From: a virus
Taxonomy: Duplodnaviria > Caudoviricetes
IMG/VR virus record: IMGVR_UViG_3300036792_000058
Location: 1-55,069 of that record
Length of the DNA stretch: 55,069 nucleotides
Strand: one strand, 5' to 3'
The position numbers and the translations under genes were made by a program. Below, piece after piece: positions 28,802 through 38,006 of the stretch; the first letter of the stretch is position 1, and the number at the start of each line of letters is the position of its first letter. The notes beneath the pieces were generated by a model that worked only from the letters and a program-made list of their open reading frames with translations, made no database searches and was not told the origin of the DNA.

Positions 28802-28856
28802 GCATCCCTTAACACGTCTAGGTGACGGATGATTCCCGGCGGGTAGAATGTCCGTT

Positions 28857-29411
28857 ATGTCCATGAAGAATTTCCCCGATCTCGCCAAGTTCGCGGCGCG
28901 GCCGGTGCCTGTCGGCTACCCGGTTGAAGAGCATATAACGCTCTACGCGCCCGATGACAACCTCCACGGCGCGCTCGGGGCCTTCATCGACTCCGTTGAG
29001 CACTCGCTTTCCCTTGCGATGTACGGCTTTGACGACGACACGCTGGCCACCGCAGTGCTGCGCAAGCTCCAGGACCCGAAGGTCTTCGTCCAGCTCTGCC
29101 TTGACTCCACCCAGGCGGCCGGCGTGCACGAGAAGGCCCTGCTGGCGACGGTGAACTACCCGAGCAACGTCGTGGCCTTCGGGCACAGCGAGGGCGGCGC
29201 GATCATGCACCTGAAGACGGGAGTCATGGACGGGCTCGACTGCTTCTCCGGCTCTACCAACTGGAGCGAGTCCGGCGAGAGCAAGCAGGACAACGAGCTG
29301 AGCTTCACCCGCCACCCGATGATCGCCTTCCGGCTGCGCCACAAGATCGACCTGATCCACGCGAGCATGCTCACCCAGATGGACGCCAAGCGGGTGGCCG
29401 GTGGCCAGTAG
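28857..29411 (+). CDS. Phospholipase D-family (single HKD, Nuc-like) nuclease
   Basis: 'MHLKTGVMDG...SGSTNWS...DNEL' HxKxxxxD/GSxN motif; TAGAAT -10 box just upstream. Confidence 0.85.
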   Translation: MSMKNFPDLAKFAARPVPVGYPVEEHITLYAPDDNLHGALGAFIDSVEHSLSLAMYGFDDDTLATAVLRKLQDPKVFVQLCLDSTQAAGVHEKALLATVNYPSNVVAFGHSEGGAIMHLKTGVMDGLDCFSGSTNWSESGESKQDNELSFTRHPMIAFRLRHKIDLIHASMLTQMDAKRVAGGQ

Positions 29412-31004: not shown

Positions 31005-32252
31005 ATGTCATCTCACAGGCGCACGAGCAGGAAGAAGGCGTGGGCTGTAGCAGCCTGCATCGCCACTGCCGTCGGAACAGGGGCAGGCATCGCATACGCC
31101 TCGCCCGGAGACCACCCGCAAGGCGAGCACTCGTTCTCCGACCCGTTCCGGTACGTCAGCCACCAAGGACTGCACAATCTGACCAGCGCACCCGACTGCA
31201 CGCTGAAGGTGCCCTCTGACCCGCTGTCCGCTCGCGGACTGGCAACCCCCTACGTGCTGCACAGCGCCGGGGCCATGTGCAACGAAGACGAGACGACCGG
31301 CGCGTTTGTCCAGGCCACCATCCTCGACCCGGCTACCGGCGTGGTCAGCGTCTACGACCCCGAGGTAGTCACACCAGGCGAGAGCGCGCCCACACCTCCC
31401 GTGGTGAAGCTGCCACGCGATGCTGTGGTGTCCATCTGGACCGGCTTCAACGGCAACAAGCTGAAGCTGACCGGGGAAGGCGCTGGCGAGTTCGTGAACT
31501 TCGCCCAGCAGTCCTACGACAACAGCCCGCAGATGTTCACCGCACTCAACCGTGCAGTGCGCGCAGGGAAGCTGACGGTTCCTCCTGTCGGCATGGGCAT
31601 GGACAACCTGGCCTGCCCGACCACCCGCGACGCATCGGTCACCGACCAGGACCCGAACGACAACGTGCCGGTCACCTACCCGTACGCGTCTAACGCCTCC
31701 AACGGCTCTGACGAACAGCTCGTCAACCTGATTCAGGGAGCGCTCGGGTGCAAGGAATGGACGGTGCCGCTGCTCGACCCAGGCGTTGCCATGGGCTCTG
31801 GGATGGGAACTTCCACCTCCGGCGTGCTCCAGGAACTCCAGGCGGCGACCGACCAGCAGGTTCCGGTCCAGCTCGTGCCTGGTAACGACGAGTTCACCAC
31901 CACCAACGGTGACTTCGTTCCGCCCACGGGAACAGGCAAGTACGACATGTTCCGCAACAACCTGTACCGCGAGCAGGTTGATCAGCCCCCGGCGTTCTCC
32001 AACCAGACGGCGCAGTTCTGCACCAACCTGAAGGAAGGCGCAGCCCGCCTCGGGCAGGACCAGTCACTGGACGCGATGCAGCCGGCTCCGGCGTTCGCGA
32101 ACATCGGCACCAACCTCGCCAACGTCCTGGCCGGGCGGTTCGTGGCTACCTGGCAGTTGCTTGACTGCACAGGTATCTCACCGATCACAGTGACTACGCA
32201 GAACCCTGACGGCACGGGCCTCGTGGTCAGCGCGACTTACCCGTCACCGTGA
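31005..32252 (+). CDS. Secreted uncharacterised protein
   Basis: Signal peptide ending AYA; 'VPSDPLSARGLATPY', 'AFVQATILDPATG' and 'CPTTRD' motifs. Confidence 0.7.
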   Translation: MSSHRRTSRKKAWAVAACIATAVGTGAGIAYASPGDHPQGEHSFSDPFRYVSHQGLHNLTSAPDCTLKVPSDPLSARGLATPYVLHSAGAMCNEDETTGAFVQATILDPATGVVSVYDPEVVTPGESAPTPPVVKLPRDAVVSIWTGFNGNKLKLTGEGAGEFVNFAQQSYDNSPQMFTALNRAVRAGKLTVPPVGMGMDNLACPTTRDASVTDQDPNDNVPVTYPYASNASNGSDEQLVNLIQGALGCKEWTVPLLDPGVAMGSGMGTSTSGVLQELQAATDQQVPVQLVPGNDEFTTTNGDFVPPTGTGKYDMFRNNLYREQVDQPPAFSNQTAQFCTNLKEGAARLGQDQSLDAMQPAPAFANIGTNLANVLAGRFVATWQLLDCTGISPITVTTQNPDGTGLVVSATYPSP

Positions 32253-32283
32253 GGAACCATCACAGTCAGCTACATTAGGGTGT

Positions 32284-32619
32284 GTGGCCCGTACTCACCA
32301 TGCAACCCGAACGTGGCGTCTTAGCTGCGGCTGCCTGCGTGACTACCCCGGAATGCCGCTCGGGAAAGTGCACCAGGTTCTGTGCGTGGCATGCCGCACC
32401 GCCGTGACCACCTTGTACGCGTACGAGGAGCGGCGGTGCGGCTACACCACAACGGCCGGGCGGCCGGAAGACGGCAAGCTGATCCACGTGAGCTGTACCA
32501 ACACCGAGGGAAGCAAGGACTGTGGCAAGGGCCTCCACTTCGACAGGTACGTGCAGCTCAGGTTCACGCAGCGCGGCAAGCTGAAGGCAACCCGGACTGG
32601 CTCGACAGGTCGCCCCTAG
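32284..32619 (+). CDS. Cys-rich hypothetical protein
   Basis: Several Cys pairs (LSCGC, CVAC). Confidence 0.5.
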   Translation: MARTHHATRTWRLSCGCLRDYPGMPLGKVHQVLCVACRTAVTTLYAYEERRCGYTTTAGRPEDGKLIHVSCTNTEGSKDCGKGLHFDRYVQLRFTQRGKLKATRTGSTGRP

Positions 32620-32632
32620 CGTGTGATACAGT
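32602..32632 (+). promoter_or_regulatory. Putative promoter of the Y RNA array-Ro60 operon
   Basis: Extended -10 TGaTACAGT (32624-32632) ending 7 nt before unit 1; TCGACA at 32602-32607 (19-nt spacer). Confidence 0.55.
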
Positions 32633-32639
32633 CGGAACC

Positions 32640-32760
32640 TGGAGCCGGAAGGTACCTGGTTATCCTTCTGAACAAAGGCCCGTAGGTGGTGGAACTCCAC
32701 TGAACCCGCAAGGGTGTGCTCACTAAGCAGGGTAAACGGTCAGGTCCGTACTACGCCCCA
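32640..32760 (+). ncRNA. Y RNA-like unit 1 (degenerate tRNA-like cargo)
   Basis: GAGCCGGA 32642, GGTTATC 32658, ACCTG/CAGGT stem, CTACGCCC 32751; internal GTGG/CCAC and ACCC-GCAA-GGGT hairpins. Confidence 0.75.
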
Positions 32761-32775
32761 ACAACTACATACTTC

Positions 32776-32875
32776 GAGCGAGCCGGACAAGTGCCGGTTA
32801 TCTGCGGGAGATCGGAGGCGGCCCAGATACTTGCTGGGTGCGCACGTAAAACCCGGAACTTCCTTACGCCCGCTC
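32776..32875 (+). ncRNA. Y RNA-like unit 2
   Basis: GAGCG/CGCTC terminal stem, GAGCCGGA 32780, GGTTATC 32796, AAGTGCCGG/CCGGAACTT stem, CTTACGCCC 32863. Confidence 0.8.
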
Positions 32876-32878
32876 ACA

Positions 32879-32951
32879 TGCCAGGTAGCCCAAGTAGAGG
32901 CAGCCTCCAATAAGAGGAACTAAGTGGCGGTGTCGAATCCGCCCCTGGCAC
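32879..32951 (+). tRNA. Non-canonical tRNA-like element (pseudo-tRNA)
   Basis: 7-bp acceptor TGCCAGG/CCTGGCA, TA, D arm GCC/GGC, T stem GGCGG/CCGCC; but 6-nt anticodon loop (CAATAA), 8-nt T loop and no CCA. Confidence 0.6.
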
Positions 32952-32970
32952 TAGACAACTAAACAGCGTG

Positions 32971-33101
32971 ACAGTGAGCCGGATGTTGCCCGGTTATCAA
33001 TGGTTCGATTCCACTACCAGGCTCCGCTTCGGCGTACGCCTGGTGCGCAAGGCGCGCATCCCTCGCAAGAGGGAGACCCGGACACGCCTTATGCCCACTG
33101 T
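32971..33101 (+). ncRNA. Y RNA-like unit 3 (YrlA-type permuted tRNA mimic)
   Basis: ACAGTG/CACTGT terminal stem; T arm TGG-TTCGATT-CCA, closed acceptor ACCAGGC/GCCTGGT, D-like GCGC/GCGC, GCAA tetraloop hairpin; CTTATGCCC 33088. Confidence 0.85.
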
Positions 33102-33109
33102 GCCTCTTC

Positions 33110-33176
33110 GGTGCGAGCCGAATGCGAGCGTTATCCTTCTAAGATAAAATGCTCAAAGTAGTCTTACGCCCGCACC
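33110..33176 (+). ncRNA. Y RNA-like unit 4 (minimal, 67 nt)
   Basis: GGTGCG/CGCACC terminal stem, GAGCCGAA, GTTATC, TTATC-CTTCTAA-GATAA hairpin, CTTACGCCC 33163. Confidence 0.8.
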
Positions 33177-33188
33177 TACAACTTCAGA

Positions 33189-33267
33189 GCAGAGCCGGAA
33201 CAATGGGGTTACCCTTACCAAGGTCGAAAGATCAAGGATATTTCCCCGCCGTGACCTTACGCCCTGC
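33189..33267 (+). ncRNA. Y RNA-like unit 5
   Basis: GCAG/CTGC terminal stem, GAGCCGGA 33192, GGTTACC, GGTC-GAAA-GATC hairpin, CTTACGCCC 33256. Confidence 0.75.
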
Positions 33268-33286
33268 CCACTAACTCAATAGCGTT

Positions 33287-33437
33287 GCGGAGAGCCGGAG
33301 TTGTCCGGTTATCACTTGTTAAACTGGGTGTTGCGGGTTCAAATCCCGTCCGGGAGCCTCAGAACTTCCGGTAGCTCAAGCTGGCAGAGCACTAGTCTGA
33401 GTCCCGAAAGGGAGCCGGCGGCATCTACGCCCTCCGC
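33287..33437 (+). ncRNA. yrlA: Y RNA-like unit 6 (YrlA-type; full circularly permuted tRNA-Asn(GTT))
   Basis: GCGGAG/CTCCGC terminal stem; order is anticodon 3' half, T arm GCGGG-TTCAAAT-CCCGT, acceptor CCGGGAG/CTTCCGG, D arm GCTC-AAGCTGGCA-GAGC, anticodon 5' half. Confidence 0.9.
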
Positions 33438-33449
33438 GCCCACAGCAGC

Positions 33450-33563
33450 GAGACGAGCCGGATGTACCTGGTTATCCTTGCGAAGAATGTGGTTCGAATC
33501 CACCGGGCCTTCGGGCTTAGGGAGTGTGGCTTCTCCAGTTCCAGGTATGCTTACGCCCGTCTC
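33450..33563 (+). ncRNA. Y RNA-like unit 7 (compact permuted tRNA mimic)
   Basis: GAGACG/CGTCTC terminal stem, TACCTGG/CCAGGTA stem, T arm GTGG-TTCGAAT-CCAC, UUCG-capped stem, GGAG/CTCC arm, CTTACGCCC 33550. Confidence 0.85.
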
Positions 33564-33589
33564 AACTAACACACAGGAAGGAACACCCG

Positions 33590-35197
33590 ATGGCCGACGC
33601 ACTCCGCTCGTTCAGGCACGGCGTTACCCCGCAGACCGAGCAGGCCCGTCCCGACGAAGTGAAGAACAACGCCGGCGGCTACGTGTTCGAGGTTGACGAC
33701 CGCACCCGGCTCAACCGCTTCCTGACCCTCGGCACCGAGGGCGGCACGTACTACGTGGACGAGCAGAAGCTCACCCGTGACAACGCCAAGCTCGTCGTCA
33801 AGATGAGCGAGGGCAGCGACCGCAAGCTGATCATGGACACCGTGATGGTGTCGCACGACGGGCGTGCCCCGCGTAACCAGCCTGCCCTGTTCGCCATGGC
33901 GGCTGCGGCCGGACTCGGCGACACTGCCTACCGGCACGAGGCGCTGGACTTCCTGCCCCAGGTCGCGCGCACCGGCTACCACTTCCTGGTCTGGGCCGAG
34001 TACATCGAGATGTTCCGTGGCTGGGGCCCGCAACTCGTCAAGGGCGTCGCGAACTGGTACAAGATCCAGTCGCCGGAAGACCTCGCCTACCAGGTGCTGA
34101 AGTACAAGCAGCGCGAGGGCTGGTCGCAGCGCGACCTCATGCGGCTGGCCAATGGTGCCGGCGGCCTCAAGCACGGGGCCACCTCAGCGCAGGCGGCTGT
34201 GTTCGATTACGTCATGAAGGGCCACTTCGACCCTGACGCGCTGCCGCCGGTCATCGAGGCCGCCCACAAGGCGCACGAGACCCGCGACGTTCGTGAGTGG
34301 GTACGGCTGATCGAGCGCAACCGCTCGCTGTCGTGGGAGATGCTGCCCTCCGAGGCGCTGGCCAAGGCTGAGGTGTGGGTCGCGCTGATCGACAACGGGA
34401 ACCTCCCGCTCGGCGCGCTGCTGCGCAACCTGTCGCGGCTGACCCGGCTGGGTGTCATCGCCCCGATGTCCACGTACAACGCGTGGATCGCGGCCCTGCT
34501 CACTGACAAGACGGCGATCCTCAAGGCGCGCATCCACCCGATCCAGGTGCTGCTGGCGCTCAAGACCTACGCCCTGGGGCACTCAATCCAGGGCACCTCA
34601 CGGTGGCTGCCGGTCCCGCAGGTCACTGACGCGCTGAACGAGATGTTCTACCTCGCGTTCGGCAACGTGGTGCCCTCGGGCAAGCGCACGCTGATCTGCC
34701 TGGACGTGTCCAGCTCGATGAACAACACCGTCTCCGGCTACGCGTTCAAGGCGCGGGAGATCTCGGCTGCCATGGCCCTGATCACGATGAAGACCGAGCC
34801 GCAGTACGCGGCGATGGCCTTCTCCCACCAGTTCGTGCCGCTAGGCATCTCCCCCGCGCAGCGCCTGGACGACGTGGTGAACTCGATCTCCAACCTGCCG
34901 TTCGGCCGGACTGACTGCGCGCTGCCCATGGCGTGGGCCCAGTACAACAACCTGGCGGTGGACACCTTCCAGGTCTGGACGGACAACGAGACCTGGTACG
35001 GGCCCAACGGCCACCCGCACGAGGCGCTGAAGAGCTACCGCCGGGCCACCGGCATCAACGCCCGGCTCCAGGTGGCTGCGGTCACCCCGACGCAGTTCTC
35101 GATCGCGGACCCGCTGGACCCCGGTCAGCTCGACGTGTCCGGGTTCGACGCGGCGGTGCCGAAGCTGATGGCCGACCACGCTCGCGGAGACATCTGA
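33590..35197 (+). CDS. rsr: Ro60/Rsr TROVE-domain RNA-binding protein with a C-terminal vWA domain
   Basis: 'NNAGGYVF...RLNRFLTLGTEGGTYY', 'KYKQREGWSQRDLMRL', 'ALLRNL', MIDAS 'DVSSSM', 'TDCALPM', 'TDNETW', 'GFD'; AGGAAGG RBS before ATG 33590. Confidence 0.95.
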   Translation: MADALRSFRHGVTPQTEQARPDEVKNNAGGYVFEVDDRTRLNRFLTLGTEGGTYYVDEQKLTRDNAKLVVKMSEGSDRKLIMDTVMVSHDGRAPRNQPALFAMAAAAGLGDTAYRHEALDFLPQVARTGYHFLVWAEYIEMFRGWGPQLVKGVANWYKIQSPEDLAYQVLKYKQREGWSQRDLMRLANGAGGLKHGATSAQAAVFDYVMKGHFDPDALPPVIEAAHKAHETRDVREWVRLIERNRSLSWEMLPSEALAKAEVWVALIDNGNLPLGALLRNLSRLTRLGVIAPMSTYNAWIAALLTDKTAILKARIHPIQVLLALKTYALGHSIQGTSRWLPVPQVTDALNEMFYLAFGNVVPSGKRTLICLDVSSSMNNTVSGYAFKAREISAAMALITMKTEPQYAAMAFSHQFVPLGISPAQRLDDVVNSISNLPFGRTDCALPMAWAQYNNLAVDTFQVWTDNETWYGPNGHPHEALKSYRRATGINARLQVAAVTPTQFSIADPLDPGQLDVSGFDAAVPKLMADHARGDI

Positions 35198-35349
35198 TGA
35201 CCACCGTCATCTGGCGCAATTCCGAAACGCGCGAGGAATCGGTTCAGCGCCCCGGCGACCCGGTGTTCGTGGAGAGCCAGTCGGTCACCCAGGCAGGCAG
35301 CGGCAGCACGGTCATCATCTCGTACCGGCCATTCGAGTTCGCCTTTTAG
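35197..35349 (+). CDS. 50-aa hypothetical protein coupled to Ro60
   Basis: TGATG overlap with the rsr stop. Confidence 0.45.
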   Translation: MTTVIWRNSETREESVQRPGDPVFVESQSVTQAGSGSTVIISYRPFEFAF

Positions 35350-35351
35350 GA

Positions 35352-36173
35352 GTGACCGTGCAGCTACGGGTGCTAGTCGCCTGTGAGTGCAGCGGCCGGG
35401 TGCGCGAGGCGTTTGCGAAGCGCGGGTGGCAGGCGTGGTCGGCAGACCTGCTGCCCAGTGAACTGCCCCCGCGCCTGCTCGCCACCCGTGACATCGCCAG
35501 GGTCCTGGTTAACAAGAGCGCCCCCATGAACGCGGGCGGCCACTACCAGGGCGACGTGCTCGACCTGTTCAACTGGAACCACCCGGTCAACGACGGGCGC
35601 AGCAACCTGAACCGTCACTGGCCGGTATGGGATGCTACCCCGTCGCCGCCCCTGTGGGACCTGATCATCGCCCACCCGCCGTGCACTGACCTGAGCTACG
35701 CCGGGGCCCGGTGGTTCAAGCTCAAGGACGCCCGGCGCGGCGGTGACGGCCGGATGCAGGCGGCTGCCGCGTTCTTCATGGAGATGCTGACCGCGCCCAG
35801 CCCGCTGATAGCTGTGGAGAATCCTCACAGCATCATCCAGGAGGAGGGCTGGGCCGGCAGGTCCGATCAGGTTGTCCAGCCGTGGTGGTTCGGTGACCCG
35901 TACGTCAAGGACACGCACCTGTGGCTCAAGGCACTGCCCGAGCTGAACCCGGACAAGCCTGTCACCCCCGAGTGGCGGGTGACGACCGGCGGTGGTAGCT
36001 GGCGAACTGACAAGGCCGCCCAGCGCAAGGCGATGTCCTCCTACGAGGACTCCGAGGGCAGGATCAACCGCGCTAAGGTGAGGTCACGGACGTTCCCCGG
36101 CTTCGCCCGCGCGATGGCGGACCAGTGGGGCTCGTTCGCGGAGAAGTACTACGCCGATCTCGGACGACACTAG
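35352..36173 (+). CDS. Phage-type DNA cytosine methyltransferase-like protein
   Basis: 'VLVACECSGRVREAF', catalytic 'HPPCT', 'ENP', 'QPWWFG...K.T.LW' and 'RSRTFPGFARAMADQW'. Confidence 0.85.
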   Translation: MTVQLRVLVACECSGRVREAFAKRGWQAWSADLLPSELPPRLLATRDIARVLVNKSAPMNAGGHYQGDVLDLFNWNHPVNDGRSNLNRHWPVWDATPSPPLWDLIIAHPPCTDLSYAGARWFKLKDARRGGDGRMQAAAAFFMEMLTAPSPLIAVENPHSIIQEEGWAGRSDQVVQPWWFGDPYVKDTHLWLKALPELNPDKPVTPEWRVTTGGGSWRTDKAAQRKAMSSYEDSEGRINRAKVRSRTFPGFARAMADQWGSFAEKYYADLGRH

Positions 36174-36182
36174 GCTGGAGCC

Positions 36183-36785
36183 ATGGCCGACAGCAACGAC
36201 GTTCTCCAGCAGTACTACCCGTGGCTGCGGAAGACGGCAGGTAACCTGATCGGCTTTGACGACCCGTGGCTGGACGACCTGATCCAGGAGGGGTACATCG
36301 CCATGTGGCGGGCCTACCAGGACTACGACCCGGACAGGGGCCCGCTGGTGCCGCGCCTGCTGTACTGCGCCCGCAAGCGCATGGTGAACGTCGCCTACGG
36401 GGCGCACAGGTACACGGGCCACGAGCCGGCACGCGGCCATGCGGAGGCGAAGTCTCCCCTGCACTATGACGAACTCCCAGACCGCGAGTACGTGATGCCC
36501 GTGACCAGGGACGACCCGTACGTTGAGCCGTCGCTGACCGATGCCCTGGCAGCCCTGCCGCCGAAGCAGCGCGCGTACGTGTTCCTGCGGTTCTGGATAG
36601 CCAACGGCGCGTTCGGCCGCACTCCCTCGGTCATGAGGCTGCGCGAGCAGTACCCGCTGCTGGGTAACGACAAGCTCTGGCTCAGGGCCCGCGACGCACT
36701 CCGTAAAGACCCACGGGTGCGGGTGCTAGCGGGACTTCCGCCAGTAGAAATAGATGAAGACACTGCGGCGTTAGGAATAACATGA
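36183..36785 (+). CDS. ECF-like RNA polymerase sigma factor
   Basis: Region 2 'DDLIQEGYIAMWRAYQDYDPDRG'; region 4 'ALAALPPKQRAYVFLRF'. Confidence 0.8.
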   Translation: MADSNDVLQQYYPWLRKTAGNLIGFDDPWLDDLIQEGYIAMWRAYQDYDPDRGPLVPRLLYCARKRMVNVAYGAHRYTGHEPARGHAEAKSPLHYDELPDREYVMPVTRDDPYVEPSLTDALAALPPKQRAYVFLRFWIANGAFGRTPSVMRLREQYPLLGNDKLWLRARDALRKDPRVRVLAGLPPVEIDEDTAALGIT

Positions 36786-37145: not shown

Positions 37146-38006
37146 ATGAAGGAACACTACCGCCCGAAGCAGGAGAAGCGGTCGCTGGACAAGCACGCTA
37201 CCCCGTGGCACAAAGAGGTAGCCGAGCGGGGGACGATCCTGCTCACCGAGGTGGGCTCGGGCCTGCACGGCACGTCTGTCTCTGACCAGGACGACCGCGA
37301 CGAGATGGGCGTGTGCATCGAGCCGCCGGATGCCGTGATCGGCTTCAAGAGCTTCGAGCAGTACGAGTGGAAGACCGCCTGGGAGCGCGAGGGGATGCGC
37401 GCCAACCGCTCCGGTCCCGGTGACGTGGACCTGGTGGTCTACAGCCTCCGCAAGTGGATGCGGCTGGCGATGAACGGCAACCCCACCGTGCTGCTGATGC
37501 TGTTCGCCCCCAGTAACAAGATCGTCCGGCAGTCGGTCGAGGGCATCGAGCTGCGCCGGATGATGCCGCAGTACATCCTGAGCCAGCTCGCGGGCCAGCG
37601 CTTCATCGGCTACCTGCACAAGCAGCGTGAGAACCTGCTGTCTCACAATGGCAAGGGCCGGGACTGCACGCGGCCGGAGCTGATCGAGAAGTACGGCTTC
37701 GACACCAAGTTCGCCGGGCACATGATCCGGCTGGGCATCCAGGGGCTGGAACTTCTGAACACGGGCAAGATCACGCTGCCGATGACCTCGGCCGACGCCT
37801 ACCTGATCAAGGCGATCCGCACCGGGAACTACAAGATGGACGAGTGCCTGGCCATGGCAGAGATCCTGGAGGAAGACCTGGTTACCCTGATGGCCTCCGG
37901 CAAGTCCCCGCTGCGGCCGGAACCTGCCTACGAGGAGATCGACAAGTGGCTGGCGGCCATCTACCAGTGGCGCTGGACAACGGACGCAATCAACCAGGAG
38001 GAATGA
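37146..38006 (+). CDS. Pol-beta superfamily nucleotidyltransferase (RlaP/YcgL-type)
   Basis: 'VGSGLHG...DDRDEMG' GS/DxD motif, 'YSLRKW..LA..GNP.VL..LF', 'GFDTKFAGHMIRL'. Confidence 0.85.
   Translation: MKEHYRPKQEKRSLDKHATPWHKEVAERGTILLTEVGSGLHGTSVSDQDDRDEMGVCIEPPDAVIGFKSFEQYEWKTAWEREGMRANRSGPGDVDLVVYSLRKWMRLAMNGNPTVLLMLFAPSNKIVRQSVEGIELRRMMPQYILSQLAGQRFIGYLHKQRENLLSHNGKGRDCTRPELIEKYGFDTKFAGHMIRLGIQGLELLNTGKITLPMTSADAYLIKAIRTGNYKMDECLAMAEILEEDLVTLMASGKSPLRPEPAYEEIDKWLAAIYQWRWTTDAINQEE

What the first reader, a model, noticed from the sequence alone, without database searches (positions are those of the whole stretch)
32658..33484. Five units display a variable anticodon-like triplet in a fixed CTT-NNN-AA slot
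Seen: immediately after GTTAYC, unit 1 has CTT-CTG-AA, unit 5 CTT-ACC-AA, unit 6 (A)CTT-GTT-AA, unit 7 CTT-GCG-AA and unit 4 CT-TCT-AA. In unit 4 this is the 7-nt loop of a perfect 5-bp TTATC/GATAA stem. In unit 6 the GTT-AA runs straight into an anticodon-stem 3' strand and T arm, so the slot there is an anticodon position. YU-NNN-AA is the canonical anticodon-loop consensus. Read as anticodons the triplets are Gln(CUG), Gly(ACC), Asn(GUU), Arg(GCG) and Arg(UCU; CUA/amber in the shifted register). Inference: the array could be a panel of anticodon decoys, sensors or guides against host anticodon nucleases (PrrC/RloC-, VapC- or PARIS-type defences), or could address specific codons on stalled ribosomes.
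Basis: partly seen in the sequence, partly recalled or inferred. Interest (0 to 1): 0.85.

Follow-up and report, generated by a model that had tools for sequence, protein, structure and literature searches.

The report
Seven Y RNAs beside phage Ro60
The repeated units are seven small Y RNA genes in front of a phage Ro60 gene; the "variable triplet" lies at the start of each RNA's variable domain, and in two units, as in many related phage and bacterial Y RNAs, it sits in a close imitation of a tRNA anticodon loop.

Summary
Window 32642-33558 (+) holds seven tandem Y-RNA-like genes directly upstream of a phage Ro60/Rsr gene (33590-35197). Each unit has a 5' GAGCCGRA Ro60-contact motif, 7-10 bases, GUUAYC, a variable module, then a 3' CUUACGCCC-like strand. 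GTTAYC is the known UUAUC/YUAY junction motif of Y RNAs.

The quoted strings are all there. The exact CTT-NNN-AA register holds in 3 of 7 units, 2 need a one-base shift and 2 lack it. In homologous units it is not conserved: CTT follows GTTAYC in 1 of 112, CTTNNNAA in 0 of 112.

The underlying idea survives in another frame. In tRNA-like (YrlA-type) units of other phages and bacteria, counting back from the T arm gives a 7-base loop reading Y-U-NNN-R-A. The triplet is hypervariable, and covariation supports a composite 5-bp stem that completes a tRNA cloverleaf. In the window, unit 4 (closed loop) and unit 6 (open loop) fit this. Unit 1 fits only in another register, and units 5 and 7 do not fit.

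The decoy or sensor function is untested. An RlaP RNA-repair nucleotidyltransferase gene lies about 2 kb downstream. This is a known kind of system (Ro60 with Y RNAs) with a possibly undescribed anticodon-arm mimic.

The parts
32642..32758 (+). Y RNA unit 1. Alternative hairpin CCUU/AAGG 32664-32678 with 7-base loop CUGAACA. 3' strand ACUACGCCC ends at 32758. No T arm.
32780..32871 (+). Y RNA unit 2. GAGCCGGA 32780-32787, GGUUAUC 32796-32802, 3' CUUACGCCC 32863-32871. No CTT slot.
32879..32950 (+). tRNA-like cloverleaf between units 2 and 3: 7-bp acceptor stem, 6-base 'anticodon' loop, 8-base T loop. Not called by ARAGORN or Rfam.
   Evidence: z -3.18; 0 of 200 shuffles fold as well
32976..33096 (+). 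Y RNA unit 3. GGUUAUC 32992-32998 is followed at once by a T-arm-like AAUGG-UUCGAUU-CCACU 32999-33015. 3' CUUAUGCCC 33088-33096. The same type occurs in L178, L142 and L179.
33115..33171 (+). Y RNA unit 4, a short, YrlB-like long hairpin. GAGCCGAA 33115-33122 matches GNCGAAN0-1G exactly. Stem UUAUC 33131-33135 / GAUAA 33143-33147 closes the 7-base loop CUUCUAA 33136-33142. 3' CUUACGCCC 33163-33171.
33192..33264 (+). Y RNA unit 5 (short). GGUUACC 33207-33213, slot 33214-33221 inside the CCUU/AAGG inverted repeat, GAAA-capped hairpin 33222-33233, 3' CUUACGCCC 33256-33264.
33292..33432 (+). Y RNA unit 6 (YrlA type). GGUUAUC 33307-33313. Open anticodon-like run UUGUUAA 33316-33322. ACUGG 33323-33327 pairs with CUAGU 33392-33396. 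Variable loop 33328-33332. T arm 33333-33349. Closed 7-bp acceptor hairpin 33350-33371. D arm 33374-33390. Extra GAAA hairpin 33402-33413. 3' strand runs to 33432.
33455..33558 (+). Y RNA unit 7 (reduced tRNA-like). GGUUAUC 33470-33476, 11-base linker holding the slot 33477-33487, T arm 33488-33504, hairpin 33505-33518, D-like arm 33521-33536, 3' strand CCAGGUA..CUUACGCCC 33541-33558. Relative in L126.
33590..35197 (+). Ro60/Rsr orthologue (TROVE plus vWA domains), the likely protein partner of the seven RNAs.
   Evidence: (PF25045 4.9e-57, PF05731 2e-37)
37146..38006 (+). RlaP-family nucleotidyltransferase (RNA-repair context). It is a neighbour, not shown to act with the array.
   Evidence: (PF10127 1.9e-28)

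Best explanation
The five 'units' are five of seven tandem Y RNA genes (one clear YrlA type, two reduced tRNA-like types, four hairpin or other types) encoded on the same strand just upstream of a phage Ro60 gene. No promoter or terminator separates them, so they are most likely cut out of one precursor. This is inferred by analogy with M. smegmatis. Each RNA closes its 5' GAGCCGRA strand and its 3' CUUACGCCC strand into the bulged stem that Ro60 binds. GGUUAYC caps that stem, and everything beyond it is the variable effector domain. A fixed CTT-NNN-AA register is not a property of the family. In this array it comes from shared ancestry of the 5' modules and from small CCUU/AAGG inverted repeats. 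The tRNA-like class of these RNAs, however, does carry an anticodon-arm mimic. The YC(N) of UUAYC plus two bases that follow the D arm together pair with one continuous 5-base strand. This gives a composite 5-bp stem under a 7-base Y-U-NNN-R-A loop. The RNA is then a whole tRNA cloverleaf with a closed acceptor stem, and the Ro60-binding stem branches out between positions 28 and 29. Window unit 4 shows the arm alone on top of the Ro60 stem. Unit 6 shows it opened at 31/32. Inferred function: the RNAs tether Ro60 to tRNA-binding or RNA-processing partners, and the variable triplet sets which partner or tRNA species is imitated.
For: Ro60 identity: (358 phage records hold a relative; all 40 listed are annotated Ro-like or RNA-binding apart from two GMA2 records). 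Seven units with one architecture. U6 hits Rfam YrlA at 35.2 bits, E 4e-5. The same GRGCCGRA-N-GGUUAYC module lies upstream of Ro60 in 53 of 84 other loci (130 units, 112 distinct). The terminal stem covaries: 5 of 6 RNAalifold pairs have compensatory changes, 18, 12 and 14 sequences of 42 for the outer three. All 42 short units fold as long hairpins. UUAUC at the 5' end of the loop domain is a published Y RNA/sbRNA motif (passages; Rfam sbRNA consensus). YUAY is noted in YrlA (section read). Anticodon-arm mimic: 32 of 38 T-arm units have 3 or more contiguous pairs closing a 7-base loop, against a shuffle mean of 4.8 and a maximum of 12. Loop composition is C32 25/32, U33 31/32, R37 30/32, A38 29/32, with 0.07-0.37 bit at 34-36 and 22 distinct triplets. 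Pairs 31:39 and 30:40 show 5 and 4 pair types, and 0 of 2000 shuffles reach the observed pairing. Trans pairs: 27:43 in 27/32 and 28:42 in 29/32 (UA 13, CG 10, GC 4), 0 of 2000 shuffles. Replication in separately drawn bacterial and viral samples. G37 goes with G36 in 9/11 against 1/19 (p 3.5e-5), and again at p 1.2e-5 and 1.1e-6. Phage Ro60 binds upstream Yrl RNAs and host PNPase in Thermus phage phiLo (passages).
Against: There is no expression or processing evidence for this contig: no RNA run is listed. Six of seven units match no Rfam family, and U6 is below the YrlA gathering score (35.2 against 69 bits). Unconstrained MFE folds often prefer other structures. The own-partner duplex is best in only 3 of 7 window units. 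The tRNA frame was chosen per unit (variable loop of 4 or 5 bases) to maximise pairs. Shuffles control for this only roughly, and the units are related by descent. D arms were found by a heuristic in 32 of 38, 34 of 45 and 40 of 46 units. In the window only U4 and U6 carry the mimic. U6 has 0 pairs for the closed stem. U7 has only an 11-base linker and U3 none. Function is inferred, not shown.
Confidence: 0.8

Rival explanations
1. One reading: the array is a panel of anticodon decoys, sensors or guides. Each Y RNA would display one anticodon-like triplet to soak up or report host anticodon nucleases, or to address codons on ribosomes.
For: The loops obey tRNA rules beyond simple shape. A at position 34 is rare (1 of 30; 5% in 409 real tRNAs). 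G37 is coupled to G36. The best-matching real tRNA shares the triplet in 15 of 91 units against 6.7 by label shuffle. The triplet is hypervariable between close relatives with identical stems. An RlaP RNA-repair nucleotidyltransferase lies about 2 kb downstream. RlaP acts on damaged tRNAs (abstract). TROVE proteins are described as an RNA-repair platform with a tRNA-like partner (passage).
Against: No functional data exist. In the window only 2 of 7 units show a proper loop. 31 of 84 Ro60 loci have no detected unit, and many units lack any tRNA-like part. RlaP lies within the flanks of only 6 of 84 Ro60 loci. No RtcB or RNA ligase is in the window. The closed acceptor stem rules out aminoacylation without prior cleavage.
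Confidence: 0.15
2. Evolutionary relic: the anticodon-like loop is left over from the tRNA or tRNA dimer from which YrlA RNAs arose. It drifts freely and has no function of its own.
For: The dimeric-tRNA origin model places an anticodon arm of the first tRNA just upstream of the T arm (passage). Positions 34-36 carry almost no information. Salmonella YrlA works without an anticodon loop (passage). Several window units (U3, U7) have lost the arm.
Against: U33, R37 and A38 and the 3-bp plus 2-bp stem are kept, with compensatory changes, across Actinomycetota, other bacterial phyla and phages. The G36-G37 coupling is hard to keep by drift. T arms stay nearly constant while the loops differ, so repeated fresh capture of whole tRNA halves is unlikely.
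Confidence: 0.25
3. The units are degenerate tRNA genes or pseudogenes (a decayed phage tRNA cluster) and have nothing to do with Ro60.
For: T-arm-like sequences occur in U3, U6 and U7, and a cloverleaf lies at 32879-32950. Sparky has four tRNA genes just upstream of its Y RNAs. ARAGORN miscalls some relatives as tRNA.
Against: ARAGORN finds 0 tRNAs in the window and Rfam finds no tRNA hit. The T arm precedes the D arm. All seven units share the Ro60-contact motif and a covarying terminal stem. The module is tied to Ro60 genes in 53 of 84 loci.
Confidence: 0.03

Closest known systems
YrlA / YrlB Y RNAs of bacteria and mycobacteriophages (Chen et al. 2014, PMC4201824, sections 5 and 6 and passages read; Wang et al. 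2018 preprint 10.1101/312249, passages read; Rfam RF02553)
   Same: They are encoded upstream of and on the same strand as Ro60. They have a 5' G-N-C-G-A/G-A contact motif, a YUAY motif before the tRNA-like part, then a T arm, a closed acceptor stem and a D arm (U6). A second class forms long hairpins with a small loop (U4, U5). Several RNAs occur per locus and are processed from one precursor in M. smegmatis.
   Different: There are seven units here; the largest upstream array in 84 comparison loci had 6. Both strands of the Ro60 stem are conserved (CUUACGCCC), whereas the paper says only the 5' strand is recognisable in Salmonella and M. smegmatis. The stem-loop that the papers call V (variable arm or loop) reads here as an anticodon arm with a 7-base Y-U-NNN-R-A loop, whereas the structure paper states that YrlA lacks the anticodon loop. 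All hits are below Rfam's gathering score.
Thermus phage phiLo Ro60 with Yrl1 and Yrl2 (PMC12135203, passages read)
   Same: A phage Ro60 gene is preceded by Y-RNA-like genes found through a CGAA-type motif. The RNAs bind the phage Ro60 and host PNPase in vitro.
   Different: There are two RNAs, not seven, and no tRNA-like domain is mentioned in the passages seen. The host lineage is different.
Metazoan Y RNAs and nematode stem-bulge RNAs (PMC4726728 and PMC4450293, passages read; Rfam RF01656)
   Same: The contact strand is GGUCCGGAG-like and is followed about 9 bases later by GGUUAUC at the 5' end of the variable loop domain. The 3' strand is CUUG/CUUAC-like. The Cashline relative scores 31.8 bits on RF01656.
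   Different: The window itself gives no RF01656 hit at E up to 10. The review calls bacterial Y RNAs not homologous with the vertebrate clades. No DNA-replication role is implied here.
Circularly permuted and split tRNA genes, and viral tRNA-like structures (recalled; only touched on in the passage)
   Same: All four cloverleaf arms are present but in a rearranged 5'-to-3' order.
   Different: Here the acceptor end is closed by a loop, and the break, at 28/29 or 31/32, carries a protein-binding stem. No mature linear tRNA is expected.

Membership tests
Ro60-associated Y RNA (bacterial/phage YrlA-YrlB sense) | Encoded within 4 kb of a Ro60 orthologue, on the same strand | tested here: met
   All seven units lie at 32642-33558 (+). 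Ro60 is at 33590-35197 (+).
Ro60-associated Y RNA (bacterial/phage YrlA-YrlB sense) | 5' motif GNCGAAN0-1G (Ro60 contact strand) | tested here: inconclusive
   The motif is exact in 1 of 7 units (U4, GCCGAAUG). The other 6 have the one-base variant GCCGGA. Both forms alternate among homologous units next to Ro60.
Ro60-associated Y RNA (bacterial/phage YrlA-YrlB sense) | 5' and 3' ends pair into a stem | tested here: met
   RNAalifold on 42 short units including U4 and U5 gives 6 terminal pairs, 5 with compensatory changes. Constrained folds of all 7 units give a long stem.
Ro60-associated Y RNA (bacterial/phage YrlA-YrlB sense) | Bound and stabilised by Ro60 | not testable with these tools
   This needs RIP or EMSA. 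No RNA run is listed for this DNA.
Rfam YrlA (RF02553) | Score at or above the gathering threshold (69 bits) | tested here: not met
   U6 scores 35.2 bits (E 4e-5) over model positions 23-85. The other six units give no hit at E up to 10. Named phage relatives also score only 33-42 bits.
Rfam YrlA (RF02553) | T arm, closed acceptor-like stem-loop and D arm, in that order | tested here: met
   Met for U6. U7 has a weaker version by eye. U3 has a T arm only. U1, U2, U4 and U5 have none.
tRNA gene | Recognised by a tRNA finder or the Rfam tRNA model, with the order acceptor-D-anticodon-T | tested here: not met
   ARAGORN finds 0 genes in the window. Rfam gives no tRNA hit. The T arm precedes the D arm.
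Anticodon stem-loop (structural motif) | 7-base loop closed by a stem, with U at loop position 2 and a purine at position 6 | tested here: inconclusive
   Met by U4 (CUUCUAA on 5 bp). U6 has the 7 bases (UUGUUAA), but the loop is open: 0 closing pairs, and the stem is formed in trans. U1 fits only in another register and has C at position 6. U5 and U7 do not fit.
Metazoan Y RNA / sbRNA (RF01656) | UUAUC at the 5' end of the loop domain, plus a family score | tested here: inconclusive
   UUAUC is present in 6 of 7 units (UUACC in U5). There is no RF01656 hit in the window at E up to 10. The Cashline relative scores 31.8 bits against a threshold of 38.

The most novel reading that the evidence does not exclude
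Actinobacterial and phage YrlA-type Y RNAs are complete, rearranged tRNAs that keep a working anticodon stem-loop. Its triplet is diversified under selection. Multi-unit arrays such as this one load Ro60 with a panel of anticodon-loop mimics, which decoy, sense or help repair damage from host anticodon-targeting nucleases, here together with RlaP.
Probability: 0.15. Interest if true: 0.85.

Novelty: new variant of a known kind. Interest (0 to 1): 0.55.

Why it matters
What the tRNA-like domain of bacterial Y RNAs does is an open question, and its binding partner is unknown. Many of these RNAs, including one from a laboratory phage of M. smegmatis (Sparky), may carry an anticodon arm whose triplet changes from unit to unit while U33, R37 and A38 and the G36-G37 coupling are kept. 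If so, the partner probably reads the anticodon loop. That narrows the search to modification enzymes, synthetases, anticodon nucleases and repair enzymes, and it makes the question testable with triplet swaps. It would also revise the published statement that YrlA lacks an anticodon loop, and the labelling of this hairpin as a variable arm. For this window alone the result is more ordinary: an unusually long Y RNA array beside a phage Ro60 gene.

Tried and rejected
1. blastn of the array against 50,697 phage records gave no match.
2. The first IMG/VR pattern scan (GAGCCGGA-N8-10-GGTTATC) gave 117 stretches. Only 3 of the loci held next to nothing else lay beside a Ro60 gene, so most were chance matches.
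3. I re-permuted T-arm units in silico and ran ARAGORN. Real units were called in 36 of 38 cases and units with a shuffled anticodon arm in 35 of 38. The test does not discriminate and was dropped.
4. MAFFT alignments A2 and A4 put gaps inside the loop and broke the register. Pair counts were therefore made in scripts anchored on the T stem.
5. Automatic search for each unit's 3' end was noisy, with false ends in T arms. Only hand-checked short units went into A3: 42 of 50 candidates. Eight were dropped as T-arm units or uncertain: L007_376, L145_643, L178_171, L179_277, L184_550, L178_1565, L005_63, L133_133.
6. The 7x7 duplex-energy matrix of window units had the own partner best in only 3 of 7, because CCGG cores are shared.
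7. Promoter and terminator scan of 32200-35400 found none.
8. No RNA holder is listed among the sequencing runs. Laying contigs of 4 DNA runs gave a truncated table that did not reach the slots.
9. There is no RtcB or RNA ligase in the window.
11. The two Wolin-lab reviews (PMC10870794, PMC6047535) are not held, and supplements are closed. They and the supplementary tables and figures of Chen 2014 could already describe phage arrays or the loop. My statement that the anticodon-like loop is not in print rests only on searches and the passages read.
Full report
**What is at the coordinates.** They belong to a larger regular array. The pattern GAGCCGRA, 7-10 bases, GTTAYC occurs seven times, all on the + strand between 32642 and 33476, with none expected in 100 shuffles. 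Each occurrence is followed 40-120 bases later by CUUACGCCC or a one- or two-base variant. U4 and U6 need a one-base shift, and U2 and U3 lack the register. ARAGORN finds no tRNA in the window, and TRF finds no tandem repeat.

**What the array is.** The ORF that starts 32 bases after U7 (33590-35197) is a Ro60/Rsr orthologue: Ro60 vWA domain 4.9e-57 and TROVE 2e-37. 358 phage records encode a relative, mostly mycobacteriophages and Streptomyces phages, where it is annotated as a Ro-like RNA-binding protein. Bacterial and phage Ro60 genes are known to be preceded, on the same strand, by Y RNA genes. Published features are:
- a 5' motif GNCGAAN0-1G;
- a conserved YUAY;
- in YrlA, a T arm, a closed acceptor-like stem and a D arm;
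- a second class of long hairpins with a small loop;
- processing of two such RNAs from one precursor in M. smegmatis (PMC4201824, sections 5 and 6 and passages).

U4 carries the published motif exactly (GCCGAAUG). The other six units carry GCCGGA.

Rfam places U6 on YrlA at 35.2 bits (E 4e-5), below the gathering score of 69. It finds nothing for the other six units, even at E up to 10.

No sigma-70-type promoter or intrinsic terminator lies in 32200-35400. This fits co-transcription with Ro60, though that is an inference.

**Relatives.** Named phages (FuzzBuster, BearBQ, Sparky, Cashline) have 1-2 units with the same GRGCCGRA-N-GGUUAYC module in the unannotated gap before Ro60. With an alignment of ten Ro60 proteins I fetched 80 IMG/VR Ro60 loci. 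Together with the four named phages, 53 of 84 loci hold the module within 2 kb upstream: 130 units, 112 of them distinct. The number of units per locus is 0 in 31 loci, 1 in 15, 2 in 12, 3 in 18, 4 in 5, 5 in 1 and 6 in 2. The window's seven is therefore the longest array seen in this sample.

An alignment of 42 short units, including U4 and U5, gives an RNAalifold terminal helix that starts three bases outside GRGCC. Five of its six pairs show compensatory changes, in 18, 12 and 14 sequences for the outer three. All 42 units fold as long hairpins.

The Cashline units also score 31.8 bits on the nematode stem-bulge RNA family. That family's consensus reads GGUCCGGAG, about nine bases, then GGGUUAUC. 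UUAUC at the 5' end of the loop domain is described as highly conserved in sbRNAs and vertebrate Y RNAs (passages). GTTAYC is thus not the frame of an anticodon slot. It is the known junction motif at the top of the Ro60-binding stem.

Measured from GTTAYC, they do not. No position in the next 14 bases exceeds 0.34 bit, CTT follows in 1 of 112 units, and CTTNNNAA in 0 of 112. In the window the shared CTT reflects paralogy. U1 and U7 share 21 of 24 bases there, and U1 and U4 share GTTATCCTTCT. In U5 and U7, CUU and AA(G) are the complementary halves of CCUU/AAGG and CUU/AAG.

**What survives, in another frame.** Of 119 units (112 plus the window's 7), 51 have a T-loop motif within 60 bases. The spacing from GTTAYC to the T stem peaks at 17, 18 and 19 bases (9, 11 and 12 units). 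For the 38 units with spacing 15-21, I counted back from the T stem as in a tRNA: a 4- or 5-base variable loop, usually AGGUC or AGAC, then five bases, then seven, then five.
- 32 of the 38 units have at least three contiguous pairs closing the seven-base loop. Shuffled segments give a mean of 4.8 and a maximum of 12 in 1000 trials.
- The loop reads C32 in 25 of 32, U33 in 31, a purine at 37 in 30, and A38 in 29. Positions 34-36 carry 0.37, 0.07 and 0.11 bit, and there are 22 different triplets.
- Groups of units with identical stems and variable loops differ only in the loop.

**The stem is composite.** Pairs 31:39, 30:40 and 29:41 form in 37, 33 and 32 of 38 units, with 5, 4 and 4 pair types. 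Shuffling the partners reaches these numbers in 0, 0 and 8 of 2000 trials. The next two positions on the same 5' strand do not pair (17 and 18 of 38). Instead, the two bases that follow base 26 after the D arm pair with 42-43. 27:43 forms in 27 of 32 units and 28:42 in 29 of 32 (UA 13, CG 10, GC 4, AU 1, UG 1), with 0 of 2000 shuffles reaching either (a D arm was found in 32 of 38 units).

The picture is a 5-bp anticodon stem built from two segments, with the Ro60-binding stem branching out between positions 28 and 29. The U-U of UUAYC pairs at the top of that stem, the A is unpaired at the junction, and the YC forms positions 29-30.

**Replication.** Of 137 and 134 matches, 49 and 48 have the Ro60 motif upstream, giving 45 and 46 distinct units. 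Of these, 37 and 39 have the closed 7-base loop.

| Measure | Bacterial genomes | IMG/VR |
|---|---|---|
| U33 | 34/37 | 36/39 |
| R37 | 36/37 | 38/39 |
| Distinct triplets | 24 | 22 |
| Trans pair 27:43 | 27/34 | 38/40 |
| Trans pair 28:42 | 27/34 | 38/40 |

Loop figures are and trans pairs. The matches without the Ro60 motif are mostly chance hits in coding DNA or units with a variant motif. The viral set partly overlaps the earlier contigs. The bacterial set does not.

**Do the loops behave like real anticodon loops?** G at position 37 goes with G at 36 in 9 of 11 units, against 1 of 19 otherwise (p 3.5e-5). The coupling recurs at p 1.2e-5 and 1.1e-6 in the replication sets. The 409 real tRNAs found in the same loci show the same tendency (47 of 91 against 31 of 318), with C32 in 67%, U33 in 89%, A34 in 5%, R37 in 99% and A38 in 65%. 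With the triplet masked, the best-matching real tRNA carries the same anticodon in 15 of 91 distinct arms, against 6.7 by label shuffle. That G36-G37 is the recognition signal of the m1G37 methyltransferase is my recollection, not a result of any call.

The published probe for the 5' half of M. smegmatis YrlA is the reverse complement of a stretch that holds UUACC and, one base later, the same seven-base loop as window unit 4. A Ro60-bound, experimentally validated YrlA therefore has the hairpin too.

The papers call this element V and equate it with the tRNA variable arm or loop (section 6; passage). The structure paper says that YrlA lacks the anticodon loop. That is true of the Salmonella RNA, whose Rfam consensus has only about seven bases between YUAY and the T stem. 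I found no paper describing the loop signature. Two reviews are not held and the supplements are closed, so I cannot rule out prior description.

**Back to the five units.**
- U4 is the arm alone on a Ro60 stem: UUAUC/GAUAA closes CUUCUAA. Its relative in L185 has identical flanks and differs only at loop positions 3 and 6.
- U6 is a full YrlA with a 7-bp acceptor hairpin. Its seven bases UUGUUAA run straight into ACUGG, which pairs entirely in trans with CUAGU after the D arm. The loop is therefore open and the branch point is 31/32 rather than 28/29.
- U1 can form CCUU/AAGG around CUGAACA. That would make the triplet GAA, not CUG, and puts C at position 37.
- U5's ACC lies in a 3-base gap of an inverted repeat, or in an internal loop of the predicted fold.
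- U7 has only 11 bases between UUAUC and its T arm, too few for an arm. Its relative in L126 has CTTGTGAAC where U7 has CTTGCGAAG.
- U3 has the T arm directly after UUAUC, as do units in L142, L178 and L179.

**Mechanism.**
- Shown: the anatomy, the link to Ro60 genes, the covariation and the loop statistics.
- Inferred from the family: the RNAs are cut from a precursor, bind Ro60 by the bulged stem, and use the variable domain to recruit other factors. Examples are PNPase in Deinococcus and Salmonella and in Thermus phage phiLo.
- Speculative: the partner reads the anticodon loop.

Context gives some colour. An RlaP-family nucleotidyltransferase (PF10127, 1.9e-28) lies at 37146-38006. RlaP adds one or two nucleotides to damaged RNA 3' ends and is needed to restore heavily damaged tRNAs (abstract). 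However, RlaP is within the flanks of only 6 of 84 Ro60 loci, and the window has no RtcB or RNA ligase (the contig is estimated to be 47% complete).

**Verdict.** The object is a new, unusually long member of a known system. Its relatives reveal what appears to be an undescribed anticodon-arm mimic in YrlA-type Y RNAs.

Noticed in passing
window 32879-32950 (+): A 72-base cloverleaf lies between units 2 and 3: 7-bp acceptor stem, 3-bp D stem, 4-bp stem with the 6-base loop CAAUAA, and a 5-bp T stem with an 8-base loop. MFE is -29.4 kcal/mol, z -3.18. ARAGORN and Rfam do not call it. It could be a processing signal or a decayed tRNA.
   Followed up: partly
window 37146-38006 (+), 36183-36785 (+), 35352-36173 (+), 28848-29411 (+): Downstream of Ro60 lie a DNA methyltransferase (phrog_757, 3.8e-51), a sigma-factor-like protein (Sigma70_r2, 7.9e-9) and an RlaP RNA-repair nucleotidyltransferase (PF10127, 1.9e-28). 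Upstream lies a PLD-like domain protein (4.1e-9).
   Followed up: partly
window spacers 32759-32779, 32951-32975, 33172-33191, 33265-33291, 33559-33589: The spacers after units share a CAACUA / CACUAAC-like motif (for example CAACAACTACA, GACAACTAAACA, CTACAACTTCA, CCACTAACTCA, TCAACTAACACA). These may be processing sites.
   Followed up: no
L221, L225, L239, L269, L278 (Nostoc/Anabaena); L232, L276 (Arachnia, Propionibacteriaceae): Bacterial genomes hold 2-3 matches to the GGTTAYC-N17-19-T-arm pattern within a few hundred bases, so multi-unit YrlA arrays also occur in cyanobacteria and actinobacteria. The Nostoc units use a GGCCGACGAA-type contact motif that my regular expression missed.
   Followed up: no
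L410, L411, L419 (IMG/VR): ARAGORN calls a YrlA-type unit with the loop CUUGUAA as tRNA-Thr(tgt), using the Ro60-stem 5' strand as acceptor and D arms. Such units may be mis-annotated as tRNAs in phage genomes.
   Followed up: no
window 32611-33649, as laid in run X3: A soil-metagenome relative covers the whole array with 122 plus 18 differences and many small indels. In the rows shown, no difference falls in unit 1, while unit 2 is heavily changed. The table was cut (108 rows not shown), so this is only a hint.
   Followed up: no
L007 (Sparky) 1497-2055: Four annotated tRNA genes (Ser, Pro, Trp, Tyr) lie directly upstream of Sparky's two Y RNA units and its Ro60 gene. L002 has more than ten tRNAs downstream of its Ro60 gene.
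   Followed up: no
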